53,423 nt of DNA from Propionibacteriaceae bacterium. Its GTDB lineage: Bacteria; Actinomycetota; Actinomycetes; Propionibacteriales; Propionibacteriaceae. The notes beneath the pieces were generated by a model, which ran no database searches, was not told where the DNA came from, and saw only the letters and a list, made by a program, of their open reading frames with translations. Shown piece by piece: positions 29,216 through 35,670 of this stretch. The first letter of the stretch is position 1; the number at the start of each line of letters is the position of its first letter. The position numbers and the translations under genes were made by a program. Where the stretch lies: positions 1-53,423 of the forward strand of contig JAIRXC010000011.1 of the NCBI GenBank assembly GCA_031268515.1, read 5' to 3'.

Positions 29216-30355
29216 TCACAAGCCGAGCTGGTCAGCCGAGTAGAAGTCCGTCCCGACCAGACGCTCTTCGACGTTGGCCTTCGTGATGACCTCGAGCGGC
29301 AGCAGGTAGCTGGGGACGTTCTTGATGCCGTTGTTGTAGTCGGTCGTGTTGTTGACGCTGACCGTCGCGCCGGTGACGATCTCCTGGACCATCTTGGCGA
29401 CCTGGTCGGCCAGGATGCGAGTGTCCTTCCAAACTGTCATGGCTTGCTTGTCGGCCAGGATGTTCTTGACGTTGGCGAGGTCGCCGTCTTGGCCGGTCAC
29501 GATCGGCCAGTCGACGTCAGGCTGGTAGCCGGCGCCTTCCAGGGCCTGCTCGATGCCGAGGGCCAGAGAGTCGTTGGGGGACAAGACAGCGTCGACCTTC
29601 TTGTCGGCGTAGAAGGAGTTGATCCGGTTCTGCATCTCCGACTGGGCCGTCGCGGTCGTCCAGCCCTGGATGCCGATGGCCTGCCACTGGTCATTGCTGG
29701 CCGGGGACTTGCCCGACGGGACGACGAGCTTGCCGGAGTCGATGTAAGGCTTGAGGACATCCCAAGCGCCGGAGAAGAAGAACTTGGCGTTGTTGTCGTC
29801 CGGGCTGCCGGCGAAGGGTTCGAGGTTGAAGGGGCCATCGGCGGTCTTGAGGTTCAGCGCCTCTTCGATGTACTGGCCCTGCAACTGGCCAACCATGTAG
29901 TTGTCGAAGGTGGCGTAGTAATCGACGTTCGGCGTGGCGTTGATGAGCCGGTCGTAGGCGATGACGGTGATGTCGTTGTTGGCGGCCTGTTCCAGGACCG
30001 GCCCCAAGACGGTGCCGTCGATGGAGGCGACGACCAGGACCGTGACGCCGTCGTTGATCATGTTCTGGATCTGGGAGATCTGCTGATCGGTCTTGTTGTC
30101 GGCGTATTGGAGAGTCGACTTATAGCCGAGGGCCGTGAGCTGCTGTTCCAGGTACGCGCCGTCGTTGTTCCAGCGTTCGAGCGACTTCGTCGGCATGGCG
30201 ATGCCGATATAGGCCTCGGCGGTCTTCGGGGCGTCGCCGGCCGTCGTCGTGTCGCCGCCTGGGCTGTCAGAGTCGCGGCTTGAACTGCACGCTCCCAGGC
30301 CGATGGCCAAAGCGGCGCAAGCCGCGACCGCCACGAGACGGGTGAGCTTCTTCAT
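29216..30355 (-). CDS. ChvE-type monosaccharide ABC substrate-binding lipoprotein
   Basis: AAGGAGG RBS, lipobox LGAC-SS, and IGIAMPTKSLERWNNDG typical of the ChvE/multiple-sugar-binding family. Confidence 0.9.
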   Translation of the reverse strand: MKKLTRLVAVAACAALAIGLGACSSSRDSDSPGGDTTTAGDAPKTAEAYIGIAMPTKSLERWNNDGAYLEQQLTALGYKSTLQYADNKTDQQISQIQNMINDGVTVLVVASIDGTVLGPVLEQAANNDITVIAYDRLINATPNVDYYATFDNYMVGQLQGQYIEEALNLKTADGPFNLEPFAGSPDDNNAKFFFSGAWDVLKPYIDSGKLVVPSGKSPASNDQWQAIGIQGWTTATAQSEMQNRINSFYADKKVDAVLSPNDSLALGIEQALEGAGYQPDVDWPIVTGQDGDLANVKNILADKQAMTVWKDTRILADQVAKMVQEIVTGATVSVNNTTDYNNGIKNVPSYLLPLEVITKANVEERLVGTDFYSADQLGL

Positions 30356-30720
30356 TGACATCTCCTCCTTGAGGGTCAGGGCCAACCGGGGACGCTGAGG
30401 CCAGGAGGTCGAAGGCGCCGCGTTTGGCTGGGTGGAAAGGCCGGTGAGACCTTCCAACGGGACATTAGTTCAGCGGATGTACCTAATGCAAGAAGTGGTG
30501 GCGCCGGCCCTGGAATCGTTACCGGATCGAGATTTTCGGTCCCTTCACGGTCGCGGGCGCGGCAAGAGTTTCGAATCTTACGGCTTCGAGCGGGCCGTAG
30601 GCGAGGTGGGAGGCAAGGCTCTGGGAAGCCCTGCGGCCGTCTACACGTCCTGAGGCACGCTGGATCGCCCAGCGTTCCCATTCCCTGTGGCCTATCGCCC
30701 CGGTCGGGTAGGAAAATTGT

Positions 30721-31620
30721 TCACGAGCCTGACAGGTGCGCCAGATCCATCTCCTCCGTCTCCTTCATCTGCTCCAATGTGAACTCGTTGACCATGACCA
30801 CGTCGCCGCTGCAACCAACTATTTCGCTCGCCTCTCCCGCCGCCGAACAGAGTTGAACGAGCGCCTCCCCAAGGGCCGGCCACAGGAAGTACCTTTCAAC
30901 GTCGCTGCTTCCTTCTCGAAGGCGCTTTGCGATGCTGGCCACCGCGTCTTTCGGGGGCAGGGCGCCAATCCAGTTCCTCAGTTTGAGTGGCGCTTCTGGC
31001 ATCTCATCTTCCGGGAAGGACGGCAGAGAGCCGGCATCGACGATGAACCAGAGGTGAACCTCGAAGGGGCCAGACTCCCAATTGTCAAGCTGTATCCGGA
31101 TCTGATCCATCTGGCCAAGCGCCCATCCCACATCCCCTTGCCTTCGAGCCTTAGTTTTTGCCAACTTCCGTAGCGGGTCAAGCCATTCCGCCACCGCATC
31201 TGGGATTGCCGCCCGCCCGAGCTTTCGCGCCACTCCGAGACGAAATCCTCGCGCCTCGCTCGAAGACGCACACCCGTGCACCGGACTTTTTTCTGCCAAT
31301 GACTCTCTGCGCACTGTGCTAATCACTTGAAGATCGGCAAACGCTTTATCTGACACTCCCGGCAGGGCAACGAAGCGAGGGGTGTGCCCCCTGGCAGCGG
31401 CCCTGGCTTCATCCTCTGACAATTCAGCCACCGGAGCCACCTGAATGAATTCATCTCTCTTAGCGTCGCAAGTCTGCGTGATCACAACAACTCCGTGTGG
31501 CGTATCGTGCTCTTCACGGGCGCCGTCAATGGAAACCACCGGAACCGAGTGCAACTGAAACACCAACCCCTGACTCAGTTCTGCGAACTGGCCCGGCGAT
31601 ATCGGTGTTTCATCACTCAT
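30721..31620 (-). CDS. Hypothetical 299-aa protein; third gene of the island operon and putative effector or toxin
   Basis: Clean ORF with lower GC than its surroundings and an ATGA overlap with the upstream HTH gene. No family recognised. The N-terminal pattern HGVVVITQTCD..FIQVAPV..ADLQVISTVRRESL loosely recalls MazF/CcdB-like barrels. Confidence 0.6.
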   Translation of the reverse strand: MSDETPISPGQFAELSQGLVFQLHSVPVVSIDGAREEHDTPHGVVVITQTCDAKRDEFIQVAPVAELSEDEARAAARGHTPRFVALPGVSDKAFADLQVISTVRRESLAEKSPVHGCASSSEARGFRLGVARKLGRAAIPDAVAEWLDPLRKLAKTKARRQGDVGWALGQMDQIRIQLDNWESGPFEVHLWFIVDAGSLPSFPEDEMPEAPLKLRNWIGALPPKDAVASIAKRLREGSSDVERYFLWPALGEALVQLCSAAGEASEIVGCSGDVVMVNEFTLEQMKETEEMDLAHLSGS

Positions 31621-32243
31621 GCGATCGGGCCCGATTCATCGGCTGTGGCTCCCAAAAGATCGAGAGCCCGCCAGGGCTGAGAGTTGATCCCGCTGGCGCC
31701 ACTTCTCCGGTAGCGAAGGAAGCGGTCAAACAAGCTGACACCCTCATCGTTCAGCTTGAACAGGCTGGATCGGCGCTCGTCTGGGGTTGCGCCAGCTAGA
31801 GAATGAGCCAGGCGTTCCACCTCGGCAAGAGCCTCGGCGTTCGTGGCGTTCAGGCGCGATCCGCTGGCCCAGAGGTGGACGGTCCGACGGCTGACGCCGA
31901 AAAGCCGGCCAAGCTGATCCCAGGTTAGGCCGGTGTGCTCGTGAATCCAGCGGATTCGACCAGAATCCCCGGCCGCAGTCCGGTCTGGGGTCGGGTTCCC
32001 CCGGTAATAGACAACACTGAACGGAGCGCTCGTCCCCGAGGAACTCGGCGAAAACTGTTGCGGCGTCAAATTCGACCCCTGCCCAAGCCCGGCCGTTGGC
32101 GTCGCTCGAGACGACATCCCCGGCGCGATGGCAGCGCTCCAGGAAACAGCCTGTGGAATGTGCGGAGCGGGAAGCCTAAGAGAGCCGGTCTTGCCTCCCG
32201 CGGCCTCGTATGAAATCCCAGAGAAGGCGGTCATGGCAGTCAT
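31617..32243 (-). CDS. HTH protein (Xre/antitoxin-like) with a disordered Ser/Pro-rich N-terminus
   Basis: LTWDQLGRLFGVSRRTVHLWASGSRLNATNAEALAEVERL resembles the HTH of Xre/ParS/MbcA-type antitoxins. ATGA overlaps with both neighbouring genes. Confidence 0.6.
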   Translation of the reverse strand: MTAMTAFSGISYEAAGGKTGSLRLPAPHIPQAVSWSAAIAPGMSSRATPTAGLGQGSNLTPQQFSPSSSGTSAPFSVVYYRGNPTPDRTAAGDSGRIRWIHEHTGLTWDQLGRLFGVSRRTVHLWASGSRLNATNAEALAEVERLAHSLAGATPDERRSSLFKLNDEGVSLFDRFLRYRRSGASGINSQPWRALDLLGATADESGPIA

Positions 32244-33091
32244 CGTTCTGCCCCATAATGATCCAGGAATGCGTCAGTCACGATCCAGCGGAAATAGTCG
32301 TAGGCCCGGCTTGCCATCTCCTGAGTGTTGTTTAGAACCGCCGCCAGGTCGAACACCGTGTTCGGGAAGTGCCGGAAGGCGTCTAGATCGAGAATCCACG
32401 CTGGCTCCCCCGCCGGCGTGGGTGTGATTGCCGGATCAAGGACAGCCCCGGCCGGCAGAATCCCCCACTGCACCTGCATGCCATCTTGCACCTGATTAGA
32501 CGTGCCTGGATTGTCAAAGCTGAAAATGGCTTGGCTGAGAGCATGAACCAGCCGGGGACCAGCGACGGCCGGCGCGCCATTGATTGGGCCGAGGAACTCC
32601 GGCCGGATCCAGCCGGCCAGCGTTTCCACTGGGACGGGAACCACTCTGTTGGTGTATCGGAATCCGAGCCTTTCGACGCGAGTTGGCTGCGCGATGCCAA
32701 TGAACACTCTTAAGACCGCTTCGAACCGCTCCATGAATTCGACTCGGCCAGGGTATGCGGTGCTCTGAAGGGTGATGAAGTTCGGCGCGACGCTAAGATG
32801 CCAGGCCCGATCCTTCGTGTGAAACTGTTTGACATTGCCGGCCTGGGTCTGTTGAACCTGTCCGTCGGGAGCGATGGTCACCGACATCTCGTTGCCATCG
32901 TTCATCTCCGGGTAGTTTGGCGCGAGAGCCATGGCCAGGCGTTCCGCCCAGCTCGGCGTCTGCGCGGCGGTGAGCTGAGGAAAGCGGGCTTGAGTCAGCA
33001 CGGAGGCCAGAGGCGGGTTGGCCAGGTGGATCTTCGTTGGCCTTGGTTGGCGGAAGGGCGCACTTACTTCGCTTACTTCGCTGTTCTCCAT
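32240..33091 (-). CDS. TIGR04255-like uncharacterised protein; first gene of the island operon
   Basis: 283 aa. The N-terminus (KIHLANPPLASVLTQARFP) and overall length match my recollection of the TIGR04255 family. That assignment is from memory only. Confidence 0.55.
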   Translation of the reverse strand: MENSEVSEVSAPFRQPRPTKIHLANPPLASVLTQARFPQLTAAQTPSWAERLAMALAPNYPEMNDGNEMSVTIAPDGQVQQTQAGNVKQFHTKDRAWHLSVAPNFITLQSTAYPGRVEFMERFEAVLRVFIGIAQPTRVERLGFRYTNRVVPVPVETLAGWIRPEFLGPINGAPAVAGPRLVHALSQAIFSFDNPGTSNQVQDGMQVQWGILPAGAVLDPAITPTPAGEPAWILDLDAFRHFPNTVFDLAAVLNNTQEMASRAYDYFRWIVTDAFLDHYGAER

Positions 33092-33110
33092 ACTTCACAG
33101 TCTACTTCAC
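33065..33110. promoter_or_regulatory. Four G(Y)GAAGTA octamers (minus-strand sense) straddling the start codon of the island operon
   Basis: TACTTC(G/A)C begins at 33065, 33074, 33091 and 33103 on the plus strand. Two copies lie upstream of the ATG at 33091 and two inside codons 4-9 (SEVSEV). Confidence 0.5.
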
Positions 33111-33223
33111 ACGACCATCGACGGTGTCATCTGCTACCTTTGGCGTCGCGCAATTCGCGGAGTTTTTGCTCCACGGCGGTCGTGCTCAGAAGCCTTAGCG
33201 CCTGTTGAGTGATATTCGCCGCC

Positions 33224-33676
33224 CTATTTGCTTTCTGGGCGGCGCTCGGTCACCGGGCCTCGGCCTGGGTCGTCGATGACAGGGTCAAACACATCGAAGC
33301 CGAGGCTGATCGACGCGACAGCCATCTGCCGGTCGTGCGTCGCCATCGCCAAGACGCCCGGCCCCAGCCGTAGCGCCGAAGCGACATGGATCGCATCAGC
33401 GCCGCCTAGCTTCTCATCCAGCGCAATGGCCTCGGCCAGCAACTCGTCGTCAACAGTCATGAGCAAGAACTCGTCGAGATATTCGTCCACGATGTCCTGG
33501 TCGACCCCGGCGTTCTTCGTCACCCGGCGGACCTCGACCTCCATCAGCCGCGAAGCCACGAAGCGGTCGCCGGCCTCGATCCGCTCCTCGAACCAGGCCC
33601 GGGCCGCCGGCGATTGGCCGCTCATGGCCCGCAACAGCACCGATGAGTCCACATACCAAGTGCGCGCTTCAAGCAT
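33224..33676 (-). CDS. vapC: Type II toxin VapC (PIN domain)
   Basis: WYVDSSVLL..DAIHVASAL..ATHDRQM are PIN acidic motifs. The start MLEARTWYVD overlaps the antitoxin stop by 8 nt. Confidence 0.8.
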   Translation of the reverse strand: MLEARTWYVDSSVLLRAMSGQSPAARAWFEERIEAGDRFVASRLMEVEVRRVTKNAGVDQDIVDEYLDEFLLMTVDDELLAEAIALDEKLGGADAIHVASALRLGPGVLAMATHDRQMAVASISLGFDVFDPVIDDPGRGPVTERRPESK

Positions 33677-33950
33677 CAAGGCGGCTTCGATCCGCATCAA
33701 GCGCAGATCCCAGGTCAACTGCGCCGCGCGCGACTGGCAACTGACGAGCCCTCTGCCCGCCCGTCCGACGCGCTGGGGCCAGCAGTCCGGCCTGGATCAA
33801 GGCCTCGACCGGATCGCCCGGTTGCTCGCGGACTCGTTCAAGACGGTAGGCGGCCACTCCGCGCCGCAACACGATCACCTCGCCGCCGTCGGCGAGCCTG
33901 GTGGCTCGCGACGGGTTCCGGTTGAACTCCGTCAAGCTGATCGTCTTCAC
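33669..33950 (-). CDS. Type II antitoxin (Phd/YefM-like prevent-host-death family)
   Basis: MKTISLTEFNRNPSRATRLADGGEVIVLRRG is a typical Phd/YefM N-terminus. Lies immediately upstream of vapC. Confidence 0.78.
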   Translation of the reverse strand: MKTISLTEFNRNPSRATRLADGGEVIVLRRGVAAYRLERVREQPGDPVEALIQAGLLAPARRTGGQRARQLPVARGAVDLGSALDADRSRLDA

Positions 33951-34191
33951 GACATCAATCTAGCATTAACACTACAATCTGCCGGCGGAGCCGCCTGGAC
34001 CGCCCAGAGCGTCGGCCGAGGCCGCGGGGCCTCCTGGAACGAACCGTAATGCTCGCCCAAGCACGTCACCATCTGATACCCAGGTTCGGCAAACGCGCTC
34101 ACGCCTGGCCATGCGCGACCACGCCATGCTTGTCTGGCTTGTTTTGATCCTTACCGCCCGATCCCAAGGGCGCTCTCGGCGCCATCGTCAC

Positions 34192-34283
34192 CGTGAATCC
34201 GACTGCTAGAGCAGCGTGAATCCGACTGCTAGATACGCGTGAATCCGACTGCTAGAGTTACGTGAATCCGCCTGGTGGAACTA
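34192..34283. repeat. Four tandem 23-bp direct repeats (CGTGAATCCGACTGCTAGA + 4 nt), the last degenerate, in the promoter of the AAA ATPase gene
   Basis: Copies start at 34192, 34215, 34238 and 34261 with an exact 23-bp period. They end 25 nt before the GTG start at 34308. Confidence 0.85.
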
Positions 34284-34307
34284 CCTGTCCAGCTAAGAGG
34301 AGGCCCC

Positions 34308-35588
34308 GTGAGCGGTCCGTCATATCTGCCGCGAATCGTTGACCGCGAGCTGTCTGACCTTCTTGCTCAGCTACCGGCCATCGCGCTCGAAGGCGCCAAG
34401 GGCGTTGGAAAGACACGCACCGCGCAACGCCTGGCTGGCGCTGTGTTCGAGTTCGCCAGCCTGGGCGTGGCCCAAAACGCGGCCGCCGGGCCGACGGTGA
34501 TCCGCGACGCCAAACCGCCTGTGCTGATAGATGAGTGGCAGCGCGCTCCCTGGATTTGGGACGAAGTGCGCCAATGGGCAGACCAAGGCGCCGAGCCGGG
34601 GCGCTTCATCCTGACCGGATCGGCTGTCCCGGTCAGCGCGCCGATCCACTCGGGCGCCGGACGGATAGTCCCCCTGCGAATGCGGCCACTGTCGTTGGCC
34701 GAGCGAGACCTGTGCGAGGCGACTGTGAGCCTCGGCGATCTCCTGGTAGGCGCCACGGGCCGAGTCGACTCCCGCGCCGACGTTGGCTTGGCGCGCTACA
34801 TCGAAGAGATCACCGCCTCTGGGCTCCCGGCTATTCGCCCGCTGCGCGGCCGCGCCAGACAGCGCGCACTGGACGGCTACCTCCAAGCCCTGGTCACGCG
34901 GGAGTTCCCCGAGCAGGGCCACCTAGTGCGCAAACCAGATTCGCTGATGGCCTGGCTGCGCGCATACGCCCTGGCGACCGGCTCGACCGCCTCCTATGCG
35001 GCCATCTTGGACGCGGCCACGCCGGGCGACGGCGACAAACCTTCGAAAGCCGCCACCCTGGCCTACCGCGACACGCTCGCCTCGCTGTGGATGCTCGACG
35101 ACGTGCCCGCCTGGAACCCTGTCTTTTCCGGCTTGCGCACGCCGTTGGCCAGCGCCCCCAAGCATTTTCTGGCTGATCCAGGCCTGGCCGCCCGGCTGCT
35201 TCGCCTCACCCCGGACACGTTGGTGGCCGGCTCGAGCTTGCGCCCAGCCGGACCTCAAGCGGGCTCTTTGCTGGGGCGTCTCTTCGAGGCTTTGGTGGCG
35301 CTGGGACTGAAGACCTACGCCGGTGCGAATGACGCCGACCTGTTTCACCTGCGAACCGCCAACGGCGACAGGGAAGTTGATTTTGTCATTGAGCGCGGAA
35401 CCGATATTGTCGCGGTGGAAGTCAAGCTGAGCCAGTCAGTGGACGCCAGGGATGTCAGGCACTTGAATTGGCTGGCCGGCCAATTGCCGGATCGCCACGT
35501 CGAAAAAGTCGTCATCACAACCGGCCCACAGGCCGTCACCCGCCCAGATGGCGTGCATGTGGTCCCGGCCGCGCTGCTTGGCCCGTGA
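34308..35588 (+). CDS. AAA+ ATPase (AAA_14 / DUF4143-type ATP-binding protein)
   Basis: YLPRIVDREL..LEGAKGVGKT (Walker A), LIDEWQ (Walker B), and a C-terminal DUF4143-like region (REVDFVIE). The GTG at 34308 follows AAGAGGAGG. Confidence 0.8.
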   Translation: MSGPSYLPRIVDRELSDLLAQLPAIALEGAKGVGKTRTAQRLAGAVFEFASLGVAQNAAAGPTVIRDAKPPVLIDEWQRAPWIWDEVRQWADQGAEPGRFILTGSAVPVSAPIHSGAGRIVPLRMRPLSLAERDLCEATVSLGDLLVGATGRVDSRADVGLARYIEEITASGLPAIRPLRGRARQRALDGYLQALVTREFPEQGHLVRKPDSLMAWLRAYALATGSTASYAAILDAATPGDGDKPSKAATLAYRDTLASLWMLDDVPAWNPVFSGLRTPLASAPKHFLADPGLAARLLRLTPDTLVAGSSLRPAGPQAGSLLGRLFEALVALGLKTYAGANDADLFHLRTANGDREVDFVIERGTDIVAVEVKLSQSVDARDVRHLNWLAGQLPDRHVEKVVITTGPQAVTRPDGVHVVPAALLGP

Positions 35589-35670
35589 CCGGCCGCGGCC
35601 CCGCGCCACCGCCCTCCGGCGGGACAAGGCGAAAGCCAGCGTTGCTTCAGCCCAGCGGCGCGGCCGCGCT

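What the first reader, a model, noticed from the sequence alone, without database searches (positions are those of the whole stretch)
30721..33091. Translationally coupled three-gene operon (TIGR04255-like, Xre-like HTH, unassigned 299-aa protein) in a low-GC island: candidate novel defence or TA-like system
Three ORFs are joined by ATGA stop/start overlaps at 32240-32243 and 31617-31620. Their GC content is clearly lower than the flanking sugar operons, which suggests horizontal acquisition. The middle protein has an HTH followed by an L..E..L helix, as in Xre/ParS/MbcA-type antitoxins. The gene order (HTH first, unknown second) is the classic antitoxin-toxin order. The 299-aa protein matches no family I recognise. 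Its N-terminal strand pattern (VVVITQTCD .. FIQVAPV .. LQVISTVRRESL) is only reminiscent of MazF/CcdB-type barrels. The upstream TIGR04255-like protein belongs to a sporadically distributed family of unknown function. The operon sits beside a VapBC pair and a DUF4143 ATPase, an arrangement typical of defence islands. As far as I know, no described system has this composition.
Basis: partly seen in the sequence, partly recalled or inferred. Interest (0 to 1): 0.8.

Follow-up and report, generated by a model that had tools for sequence, protein, structure and literature searches.

The report
Conserved three-gene toxin-antitoxin-like cassette
The three overlapping genes are a real, uncharacterised, horizontally mobile cassette found in several bacterial phyla; it has a near-invariant DNA control site and looks like a three-part toxin-antitoxin or defence module, but its function is untested.

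Summary
Three minus-strand genes (g1 33091-32240, g2 32243-31617, g3 31620-30721) are joined by ATGA overlaps and have lower GC than their flanks. g1 is a clear TIGR04255 protein whose model shows two TBP-like repeats. g2 carries an Xre/MbcA-like helix-turn-helix. g3 matches no Pfam, NCBIfam, PADLOC or PHROG family, but belongs to a large family (843 clusters), and its N-terminal domain models confidently as a MazF/PemK fold.

The trio is a conserved unit. It was present in 19 of 19 testable actinobacterial genomes found through g3. It also occurs in Alpha- and Gammaproteobacteria and in Cyanobacteria, often on plasmids or beside integrases and relaxases. Its GC is below the flanks in all 19 loci.

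A 19-nt element, TGTGAAGTAnnnTGTGAAG, sits one base before the g1 start codon in every actinobacterial locus. Its layout fits an operator over the promoter of a leaderless mRNA.

In other loci TIGR04255 heads a known Xre-RES toxin-antitoxin pair, or a third cassette type found in Burkholderia prophages.

Best reading: an autoregulated, mobile, three-part toxin-antitoxin or defence-like module with a new MazF-fold effector. Toxicity, neutralisation and any phage phenotype are untested. One locus lacks g2, which weakens the simple antitoxin model.

The parts
33093..33111 (-). Conserved non-coding element TGTGAAGTAgacTGTGAAG: two TGTGAAG direct repeats, 12 nt start to start. It ends one base before the g1 ATG. 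Proposed operator overlapping the promoter of a leaderless mRNA.
   Evidence: It is the only match in the window. An exact or one-mismatch copy sits at the same position in all 19 testable actinobacterial genome loci and in the Kocuria plasmid. In non-actinobacterial loci it is reversed or diverged. A motif-only scan of metagenomes returned 23 of 120 loci with a g1 homologue next to the motif.
33099..33104 (-). TAGACT, a TAnnnT -10-like hexamer at -13 to -8 from the A of the g1 start codon. This spacing fits transcription starting at the start codon (leaderless mRNA).
   Evidence: A TAnnnT hexamer is present between the repeats in every actinobacterial locus, and there is no room for a Shine-Dalgarno site. 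Promoter function is inferred, not measured.
32240..33091 (-). g1: TIGR04255 family protein, 283 aa. The model shows two beta-alpha-beta4-alpha (TBP-like) repeats. Proposed accessory, sensor or substrate-binding subunit.
   Evidence: TIGR04255 at 122.4 bits. AlphaFold pLDDT 92, pTM 0.89. Foldseek gives only weak matches to AdoMetDC, TBP, Bet v1 and the phosphoglucomutase C-terminal domain. Family-wide invariants are Q34, R145, D235 and D237, with R141 and G143 nearly invariant.
31617..32243 (-). g2: 208-aa protein. It has a variable, low-complexity N-terminal region of about 95 aa, then a conserved Xre/MbcA-like HTH and a helical tail. Proposed autorepressor and possible antitoxin.
   Evidence: Sub-threshold HTH hits. 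The g2 profile hits MbcA at E 0.0022. The N-terminal region is translated: 0 in-frame stops in 1969 codons over 20 loci, against 69 and 71 stops in the other two frames.
31770..31958 (-). HTH domain of g2 (about aa 96-158), the most conserved protein segment of the cassette (consensus SGLTWDQL.K.FGVSRR.VHLWA.GGRMNA.N).
   Evidence: Alignments. W108, R119, W125 and G128 are invariant.
30721..31620 (-). g3: 299-aa protein of an unannotated family. Proposed effector or toxin.
   Evidence: 843 clusters at 50% identity match at E<=1e-3. Every homologue that carries a source name (about half of the 120 listed) is called 'hypothetical protein' and none has a Pfam domain. AlphaFold pLDDT 92.2.
31216..31578 (-). 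N-terminal MazF/PemK-fold domain of g3 (about aa 15-135), carrying the invariant SQTCD-type motif (Q49, C51, D52) and R132.
   Evidence: Foldseek against PDB: all of the top 50 hits listed are MazF-family toxin structures, best E 1.5e-4, best TM-score normalised to target length 0.68. Foldseek against the viral library gives PemK-like hits. A collinear hhalign alignment to MazF/Kid has E 0.033.
30724..31203 (-). C-terminal alpha/beta domain of g3 (about aa 140-299), of unknown fold class. It ends in the conserved tail motif LDLDHLS.
   Evidence: Secondary structure from the model. Conserved FPDE, W181, D292, L296 and S297. A PDB sequence-profile search found no match.

Best explanation
This is a horizontally mobile, autoregulated, three-component toxin-antitoxin-like conflict cassette.

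Proposed mechanism:
- Transcription starts at the g1 start codon, giving a leaderless mRNA. The promoter's -10 hexamer lies between two TGTGAAG direct repeats.
- g2 is an Xre/MbcA-type helix-turn-helix protein. It binds these repeats and represses the operon. Through its C-terminal tail it probably also restrains g3.
- g3 is the effector. Its N-terminal domain has the MazF/PemK toxin fold but its own invariant Gln-x-Cys-Asp and Arg residues, so it most likely attacks or binds nucleic acid, probably RNA, by non-canonical chemistry.
- g1 (TIGR04255, two TBP-like repeats) is an accessory subunit, either a trigger sensor or a substrate-binding partner. Related cassettes combine it with other effectors.

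Shown here: gene structure, synteny, mobility signature, predicted folds, and conservation of the DNA element.

Inferred: who binds the DNA element, toxicity, neutralisation, the target, and the biological role (plasmid or island addiction, or phage defence).
For: Synteny and coupling:
- The trio is in the same order in 19 of 19 testable genome loci from about a dozen actinobacterial genera.
- It also occurs in Acidiferrobacter, Chroococcidiopsis, Gloeocapsa, Sphingomonas, Rhizobium, Sinorhizobium, Mesorhizobium and Vibrio.
- Four-base overlaps are frequent: g1/g2 in 12 of 19 loci and g2/g3 in 6 of 19.

Mobility:
- Trio GC is below the flanks in 19 of 19 loci, by 8 points on average.
- The flanks are unrelated between loci.
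- g1 homologues appear on 15 different plasmids in two searches, and the loci examined lie next to relaxases, integrases and IS elements.

Protein folds and families:
- The g3 N-terminal domain has a MazF fold.
- The best solved relative of g2 is the antitoxin MbcA.
- TIGR04255 also heads an operon of an Xre_MbcA_ParS_C antitoxin and a RES toxin. So in a related cassette the positions after g1 are held by a known antitoxin-toxin pair.

Operator:
- The element is identical or nearly identical in 21 of 21 actinobacterial loci found through protein searches. It abuts the start codon and has TAnnnT at -13 to -8.
- In Gram-negative and cyanobacterial loci it keeps the 12-nt spacing but is reversed or diverged. 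The divergence tracks a diverged recognition helix: Vibrio has TGTGTAAT twice, and Rhizobium has TTTCACTTTAC twice with TRQSLYNW in place of SRRAVHLW.

Analogy for g1:
- The TBP-like domains of the RnlA toxin are needed for substrate binding (PMC8266594).
Against: - No experiment backs any of this.
- g3 has no sequence match to PemK/MazF in Pfam.
- In the best available alignment, the MazF catalytic Arg and Thr positions are Gly43 and a hydrophobic residue (low-confidence alignment).
- One long metagenomic contig (L022) has intact g1 and g3 but no g2 and only half an operator. A lethal toxin neutralised only by g2 does not predict this.
- The structural matches of g1 are weak (TM-score about 0.25-0.35).
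- There is no PADLOC hit for any of the three proteins, and known defence genes are only mildly enriched in the flanks.
Confidence: 0.5

Rival explanations
1. This is a sensor-effector defence system with a dedicated transcriptional repressor, not a toxin-antitoxin system. g1 and g3 form the functional pair and are inactive until triggered. g2 only sets expression level, in the manner of the repressors attached to BREX or CBASS operons.
For: L022 keeps g1 and g3 without g2, and there the upstream half-site of the operator is lost. TIGR04255 is the constant partner of three different downstream gene sets: g2+g3; Xre+RES; and X plus Y, a protein with a GLTC motif. This matches the pattern of a shared module with swappable effectors. 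The third cassette type sits in an integrase-proximal accessory region of P2-like Burkholderia phages, and beside a multiubiquitin/ThiF/DUF6527 cluster.
Against: g2 resembles a true antitoxin (MbcA) beyond the HTH itself. In L226 the corresponding position holds a classical ParS/MbcA-type antitoxin. g2 is retained in all but one of the more than 35 trios examined. The g2-g3 order and coupling are those of an antitoxin followed by its toxin.
Confidence: 0.28
2. This is a mobile-element housekeeping or regulatory module, for example control of transfer, integration or maintenance, with no toxin or immune function. Under this reading the MazF-like fold of g3 serves as a binding scaffold only.
For: The cassette often lies directly beside relaxase, MobC, integrase and T4SS coupling-protein genes. 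The canonical MazF catalytic residues are missing. There is no PADLOC match.
Against: In most chromosomal loci no mobile-element genes lie within 6 kb and the flanks are metabolic genes. That fits a self-contained selfish or defensive cassette better. g3 keeps invariant polar residues (Q49, C51, D52, R132, R136), which suggests an active site. There is also the link to an Xre-RES pair.
Confidence: 0.15
3. This is an artefact: chance ORFs in GC-rich DNA, or a mis-called middle gene, with g2 really being a protein of about 110 aa preceded by an intergenic region.
For: The N-terminal 95 aa of g2 are low-complexity, have flat GC across the three codon positions, and are poorly conserved.
Against: The g2 reading frame stays open from the g1 stop codon in 20 of 20 loci: 0 stops in 1969 codons, against 69 and 71 in the other frames. 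All three proteins have many homologues, and g1 and g3 give confident models.
Confidence: 0.02

Closest known systems
Xre-RES type II toxin-antitoxin systems (MbcTA of M. tuberculosis, ParST, Xre/COG5654 pairs)
   Same: The g2 HTH and the following helix resemble the antitoxin MbcA (6fkg_C, E 0.0022), and 5 of 23 g2 homologues touch Pfam Xre-like-HTH. The order is antitoxin-like gene first and larger partner second, with translational coupling. A related TIGR04255-led operon really does contain an Xre_MbcA_ParS_C antitoxin and a RES toxin.
   Different: g3 has no RES domain. g2 does not reach any Pfam or NCBIfam threshold. There is an extra first gene (TIGR04255), and g2 has a long variable N-terminal extension.
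MazEF / PemIK / Kid-Kis (and CcdAB) toxin-antitoxin systems
   Same: The g3 N-terminal domain is predicted to adopt the MazF/PemK SH3-like barrel. Collinear motif relics remain: RQGDV against KRGDV, VVVISQTCD against VLVIQND, and FADLxxIxTVxKxxL against ILLEQIRTIDKQRL.
   Different: There is no sequence-level family match. The catalytic Arg/Thr pair appears absent. g3 is about 2.6 times longer, with an extra C-terminal domain of about 160 aa. The partner is an HTH protein, not an AbrB- or RHH-type MazE/PemI. The operon has three genes.
RnlAB / LsoAB anti-phage toxin-antitoxin systems
   Same: In RnlA, two TBP-like domains accompany an RNase effector, and TBP1 is required for substrate binding (PMC8266594). 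g1 has two TBP-like repeats by topology.
   Different: In RnlA the TBP-like domains are fused to a HEPN RNase, whereas g1 is a separate protein and the effector here has a MazF-like fold. RnlA did not appear among the top 50 Foldseek hits shown for g1. This is an analogy only.
Tripartite toxin-antitoxin systems (TAC HigBA-SecB chaperone, HipBST, PaaR-PaaA-ParE, omega-epsilon-zeta)
   Same: These have three co-transcribed genes, with a regulator or accessory protein added to a toxin-antitoxin pair.
   Different: None of them, as far as I know, uses a TIGR04255 or TBP-like protein, and none places the accessory gene first on a leaderless transcript. Their components are unrelated to g1 and g3.

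Membership tests
TIGR04255 family (NCBIfam) - g1 | Score above the curated cut-off of the TIGR04255 HMM over its full length | tested here: met
   122.4 bits against a cut-off of 30, covering profile positions 2-250 of 252.
Type II toxin-antitoxin system (generic) | Adjacent, co-directional, co-transcribed genes with the antitoxin-like DNA-binding gene upstream of the toxin-like gene | tested here: met
   g2 (HTH) overlaps g3 by 4 bases. The order is conserved in 19 of 19 loci.
Type II toxin-antitoxin system (generic) | The antitoxin binds an operator in its own promoter (autoregulation) | tested here: inconclusive
   A strongly conserved direct-repeat element lies at the promoter and changes along with the g2 recognition helix. 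Binding was not measured.
Type II toxin-antitoxin system (generic) | The toxin arrests growth and is neutralised by direct binding of the antitoxin | not testable with these tools
   This needs expression and interaction experiments. Locus L022, which lacks g2, is a caution.
MazF/PemK endoribonucleases (Pfam PF02452) | Sequence match to the PemK/MazF profile | tested here: not met
   No Pfam hit for g3 or for any of 83 homologues. No PDB sequence hit.
MazF/PemK endoribonucleases (Pfam PF02452) | MazF/CcdB SH3-like barrel fold | tested here: met
   AlphaFold model with pLDDT 92. All of the top 50 Foldseek PDB hits listed are MazF-family toxin structures (best E 1.5e-4; TM-score normalised to target up to 0.68; probability 1.00).
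MazF/PemK endoribonucleases (Pfam PF02452) | Catalytic Arg (B. subtilis R25, E. coli R29) and Thr/Ser (T48, T52) | tested here: not met
   In the hhalign alignment, R25 pairs with the nearly invariant G43 and T48 pairs with a hydrophobic position. The alignment is weak (E 0.033), so this result is provisional.
Xre-RES / MbcTA / ParST systems | Antitoxin with an Xre-like HTH plus a DUF2384 (Xre_MbcA_ParS_C) domain | tested here: inconclusive
   MbcA is the best PDB hit, at E 0.0022. PF20432 is hit by 5 of 23 homologues at E no better than 1.2e-4, and window g2 scores 15.8 bits, below the 25.8-bit cut-off. NF049845 scores 13.4 bits against a cut-off of 90. PF09722 is not detected.
Xre-RES / MbcTA / ParST systems | RES-domain NAD+-targeting toxin | tested here: not met
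   g3 has no RES hit. A RES toxin is present only in the related cassette L226.
Known or candidate anti-phage systems in PADLOC-DB v2.0.0 | A match of any component to a PADLOC model | tested here: not met
   No hits for g1, g2 or g3 at E<=1. Only the neighbouring DUF4143 ATPase matches (PDC-S01).
TBP-like fold (g1) | Two beta-alpha-beta4-alpha repeats with significant structural superposition on TBP-like proteins | tested here: inconclusive
   The DSSP topology of the model fits two such repeats. Foldseek matches are weak: AdoMetDC E 9e-4, TBP E 2.4e-3, TM-scores 0.25-0.35. hhalign finds no similarity between the two halves.

The most novel reading that the evidence does not exclude
TIGR04255 proteins may be the common sensor or adaptor subunit of a previously unrecognised superfamily of three-gene conflict cassettes carried on mobile elements. 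These cassettes would have interchangeable effectors: the MazF-fold g3 family, RES NAD+-targeting toxins, and a protein with a GLTC motif found in Burkholderia prophages. In the g3 branch, a MazF-like barrel would have been rebuilt around an invariant Gln-x-Cys-Asp/Arg site with new chemistry. The whole unit would be switched by one of the most conserved operator/leaderless-promoter elements seen in toxin-antitoxin-like loci.
Probability: 0.3. Interest if true: 0.8.

Novelty: new variant of a known kind. Interest (0 to 1): 0.64.

Why it matters
- It would give a first functional context to TIGR04255, a family that has been annotated for years without one.
- It would define a new MazF-fold effector family (at least 843 clusters at 50% identity) that lacks the canonical catalytic residues.
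- It would add a three-component layout to the Xre-type toxin-antitoxin repertoire.
- The near-invariant operator, placed exactly at a leaderless start codon, is a clean and directly testable regulatory element. It also works as a practical search handle: a 19-nt DNA pattern alone recovered further cassettes from metagenomes.
- If the cassette defends against phages or stabilises plasmids in Streptomyces, Nocardia, rhizobia and cyanobacteria, it bears on strain engineering and on the biology of mobile elements.

Tried and rejected
Searches that found nothing or failed:
- Single-sequence searches with g3 failed twice on time-outs. A single-protein genome scan found nothing. The full 83-sequence alignment was too divergent to derive scan patterns. 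A subset sharing the motif RFAFPDEV worked.
- PDB sequence-profile searches gave nothing for g1 or g3.
- Rfam gave no RNA family over 30300-34400.
- The simple promoter and terminator scan found nothing useful near the operon. It does not model actinobacterial leaderless promoters.
- hhalign of the two halves of g1 found no internal sequence repeat.

Ideas rejected:
- Conserved fourth gene: rejected, because the flanks differ in every locus.
- The PIN/Phd pair and the DUF4143 ATPase as parts of the system: rejected, because they do not recur next to the trio in other genomes. VapBC lies nearby only in one Mesorhizobium plasmid.
- g3 in sequenced phages: no match.

Literature:
- Searches for TIGR04255, CHP04255 and IPR026349, and for tripartite, MazF-like, TBP-like and RES-Xre terms, found no description of this system.

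Full report
**Observation**

The window carries three minus-strand ORFs: g1 33091-32240 (283 aa), g2 32243-31617 (208 aa) and g3 31620-30721 (299 aa). Both junctions are ATGA stop/start overlaps. The trio has a GC content of 0.607, against 0.658 for the rest of the window.

It lies in an insert of about 5.2 kb (about 30460-35670). The insert also holds a PIN/Phd-like pair and a DUF4143/AAA_14 ATPase that matches the PADLOC candidate PDC-S01. The insert separates araBDA from a sugar ABC transporter.

**The three proteins**

*g1.* It is an unambiguous TIGR04255 protein (122 bits against a cut-off of 30). An AlphaFold model built on 82 homologues is confident (pLDDT 92, pTM 0.89) and shows two consecutive beta-alpha-beta4-alpha units, the TBP-like topology. 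Foldseek finds only weak relatives, all of that fold class or of the related AdoMetDC sandwich. Invariant polar residues (Q34, R145, D235, D237; R141 nearly invariant) sit on strands of the sheets. The motifs that carry them can also be read in the most distant cassette types (sequences).

*g2.* It has a conserved C-terminal HTH (SGLTWDQL..FGVSRR.VHLWA.GGRMN) and a helical tail.
- Individual Pfam hits are below threshold. Across 23 homologues they are HTH_23 (17), HTH_3 (11), HTH_31 (5) and Xre-like-HTH (5).
- The best solved relative of the g2 profile is the antitoxin MbcA (E 0.0022).
- The N-terminal region of about 95 aa is variable and low-complexity, but it is translated. It has no in-frame stop in 1969 codons over 20 loci, against 69 and 71 stops in the other two frames.

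*g3.* It has no Pfam, NCBIfam, PADLOC or PHROG family.
- It does have 843 relatives (clusters at 50% identity) at E<=1e-3. Every one that carries a source name is called "hypothetical protein".
- Its model is confident (pLDDT 92.2).
- All of the top 50 PDB matches listed for the N-terminal domain are MazF-family toxin structures (best E 1.5e-4; best target-normalised TM-score 0.68). PemK-like proteins lead the viral library.
- A collinear hhalign alignment to MazF/Kid (E 0.033) shows motif relics. It places Gly43 and a hydrophobic residue at the positions of the catalytic Arg and Thr.
- The family has its own invariants: Q49, C51, R132, R136 and W181, with D52 nearly invariant. It also has a conserved FPDE motif and a C-terminal LDLDHLS tail.
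- The C-terminal domain of about 160 aa remains unidentified.

**The trio is a conserved unit**

A genome scan seeded with a conserved g3 peptide gave 20 loci from about a dozen actinobacterial genera. All 19 with upstream DNA carry g1-g2-g3 in the same order and strand, at roughly 30-35% identity for g1 and g3 and higher for the g2 HTH domain. Four-base overlaps are frequent.

The same trio was confirmed in:
- an Acidiferrobacter MAG;
- plasmids of Kocuria, Chroococcidiopsis, Sphingomonas, Rhizobium etli, Sinorhizobium, Mesorhizobium, Gloeocapsa and Vibrio.

**Mobility**

- Trio GC is lower than flank GC in 19 of 19 loci, by 8 points on average.
- The flanks are unrelated between loci and mostly housekeeping.
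- A minority of flanks carry restriction-modification, DarG, HEC or integrase genes.
- On plasmids the cassette often abuts relaxase, integrase or IS genes.
- No conserved fourth gene exists.

In the window and in all 19 testable genome loci, the bases just before the g1 start codon read TGTGAAGTAnnnTGTGAAG[T/C], followed directly by ATG or GTG. The pattern is exact in 17 of these 19 loci, in the window and in the Kocuria plasmid, and has one mismatch in the other two. The proteins themselves are only about 30% identical.

The spacer together with the preceding TA always forms TAnnnT at -13 to -8. There is no room for a ribosome-binding site. This is the layout of an actinobacterial promoter for a leaderless mRNA, bracketed by two half-sites 12 nt apart.

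In proteobacterial and cyanobacterial loci the same repeat pair lies 26-132 nt upstream of the region aligned to g1, in the opposite orientation. In some it is diverged in step with the g2 recognition helix: Vibrio has TGTGTAAT twice, and Rhizobium has TTTCACTTTAC twice with TRQSLYNW in place of SRRAVHLW. The flip in orientation argues for a DNA-level protein-binding site rather than an RNA element.

Searching public DNA with the 19-nt pattern alone returned 23 of 120 metagenome loci and 3 of 76 viral contigs with a g1 homologue beside the motif. I infer that g2 binds the element and autoregulates the operon. This has not been shown.

**What TIGR04255 does elsewhere**

- A distant member (L226, beside T4SS coupling-protein and DUF4913 genes) is followed, with a 4-base overlap, by an Xre_MbcA_ParS_C antitoxin and then a RES toxin. 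That is a known toxin-antitoxin pair in the positions held here by g2 and g3.
- Another type pairs TIGR04255 with two unrelated proteins, the last carrying a GLTC[S/A]T motif. It occurs in a Rhizobium plasmid beside a multiubiquitin/ThiF/DUF6527 cluster, and in P2-like Burkholderia phages between the integrase and a toxin/antidote (addiction-module) pair.
- Rhodococcus plasmids keep a TIGR04255 gene and a related HTH gene, followed by IS elements.

So TIGR04255 is a constant first gene with swappable downstream partners on mobile DNA.

**Mechanism proposed**

The most likely model (confidence about 0.5) is an autoregulated three-part toxin-antitoxin-like cassette. g2 represses the leaderless promoter through the direct repeats and probably restrains g3. 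g3 is a MazF-fold effector with non-canonical chemistry. g1 is a sensor or substrate-binding accessory, by analogy with the TBP-like domains that the RnlA toxin needs for substrate binding (PMC8266594).

The main rival (about 0.28) is a sensor-effector system in which g2 is only a repressor. It is favoured by locus L022, where g1 and g3 are intact, g2 is absent and only half the operator remains.

A non-conflict role in mobile-element housekeeping (about 0.15) cannot be excluded. An artefact is excluded for g1 and g3.

**Comparison with known systems and novelty**

The cassette works most like type II toxin-antitoxin systems of the Xre-RES (MbcTA/ParST) and MazEF kinds, but it is a member of neither:
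- it has no RES domain;
- it has no PemK profile match;
- the MazF catalytic pair appears to be missing;
- it has an extra first gene and an extra g3 domain.

No PADLOC model matches, and no paper in the searchable library mentions TIGR04255 or a system of this composition. I rate it a new variant of a known kind: a well-supported and widespread but functionally untested candidate. Interest is 0.64.

Noticed in passing
window 34192-34274: A 23-nt tandem repeat (consensus CGTGAATCCGACTGCTAGAGAAG, 3.6 copies, 86% matches) lies immediately upstream of the DUF4143/AAA_14 ATPase gene (34275-35588, + strand). That gene matches the PADLOC candidate PDC-S01 at 225 bits. It may be a regulatory or iteron-like array.
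   Followed up: partly
window 33063-33111: The GAAGTA core of the operator recurs twice more just inside the g1 coding sequence (CGAAGTAAG twice, encoding SEVSEVS at aa 5-11). That makes four to five copies of TACTTC[A/G]C on the + strand across the start codon. These extra copies are not conserved in other loci.
   Followed up: partly
L001-L020, g2 N-terminal regions (e.g. L001:5246-5600): Most g2 homologues have a moderately hydrophobic stretch of about 20 aa, resembling a signal peptide or transmembrane segment, in the variable N-terminal region. The Kyte-Doolittle 19-residue maximum is at least 1.6 in 7 of 20 loci. The window's g2 (0.59) lacks it, and the much shorter N-terminus of the Rhizobium homologue appears to lack it too. 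This is odd for a DNA-binding protein and remains unexplained.
   Followed up: partly
L022:6001-8069: A long metagenomic contig carries intact g1 and g3 homologues separated by 380 nt with no recognisable g2. Only the start-proximal TGTGAAG half-site remains, together with a TATAGT -10.
   Followed up: partly
L226:2443-4324: A TIGR04255 gene is followed, with a 4-base overlap, by an Xre_MbcA_ParS_C antitoxin and then a RES-domain toxin, next to T4SS coupling-protein and DUF4913 genes. This would be a three-gene form of a known toxin-antitoxin family. Only one such locus was found.
   Followed up: partly
L231:3489-5519 (Burkholderia phage vB_SBP21 and six related phages); L225:3956-6129 (Rhizobium sp. 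CB3060 plasmid): This is a different TIGR04255-led three-gene cassette. Its last protein (218-236 aa, GLTC[S/A]T motif) is homologous between the two loci (E 1e-18) and has no Pfam family. In the phages it lies between the integrase and a toxin/antidote pair. In the plasmid it lies beside multiubiquitin/ThiF/DUF6527 genes.
   Followed up: partly
L224:3977-7068 (Rhodococcus aetherivorans plasmid; the same in R. pyridinivorans): A distant TIGR04255 gene and a related HTH regulator sit directly after a MobF relaxase gene and are followed by ISL3 and IS110 transposases where a third gene would be expected.
   Followed up: no
window 33224-33950: A PIN-domain ORF (E 1.3e-8) overlaps a weak Phd/YefM-like ORF (E 5e-4, below the Pfam cut-off). 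The likely true arrangement is an ATG that overlaps the end of the upstream ORF and its TGA stop (ATGCTTGA). This appears to be an independent VapBC-like pair in the same low-GC insert.
   Followed up: partly
L027-L222 (motif-only hits): About 97 of 120 metagenome loci and 73 of 76 viral loci that contain TGTGAAGTAnnnTGTGAAG have no g1 homologue nearby. Most are probably chance matches in very large collections, but other regulatory targets of g2-like proteins were not ruled out.
   Followed up: no
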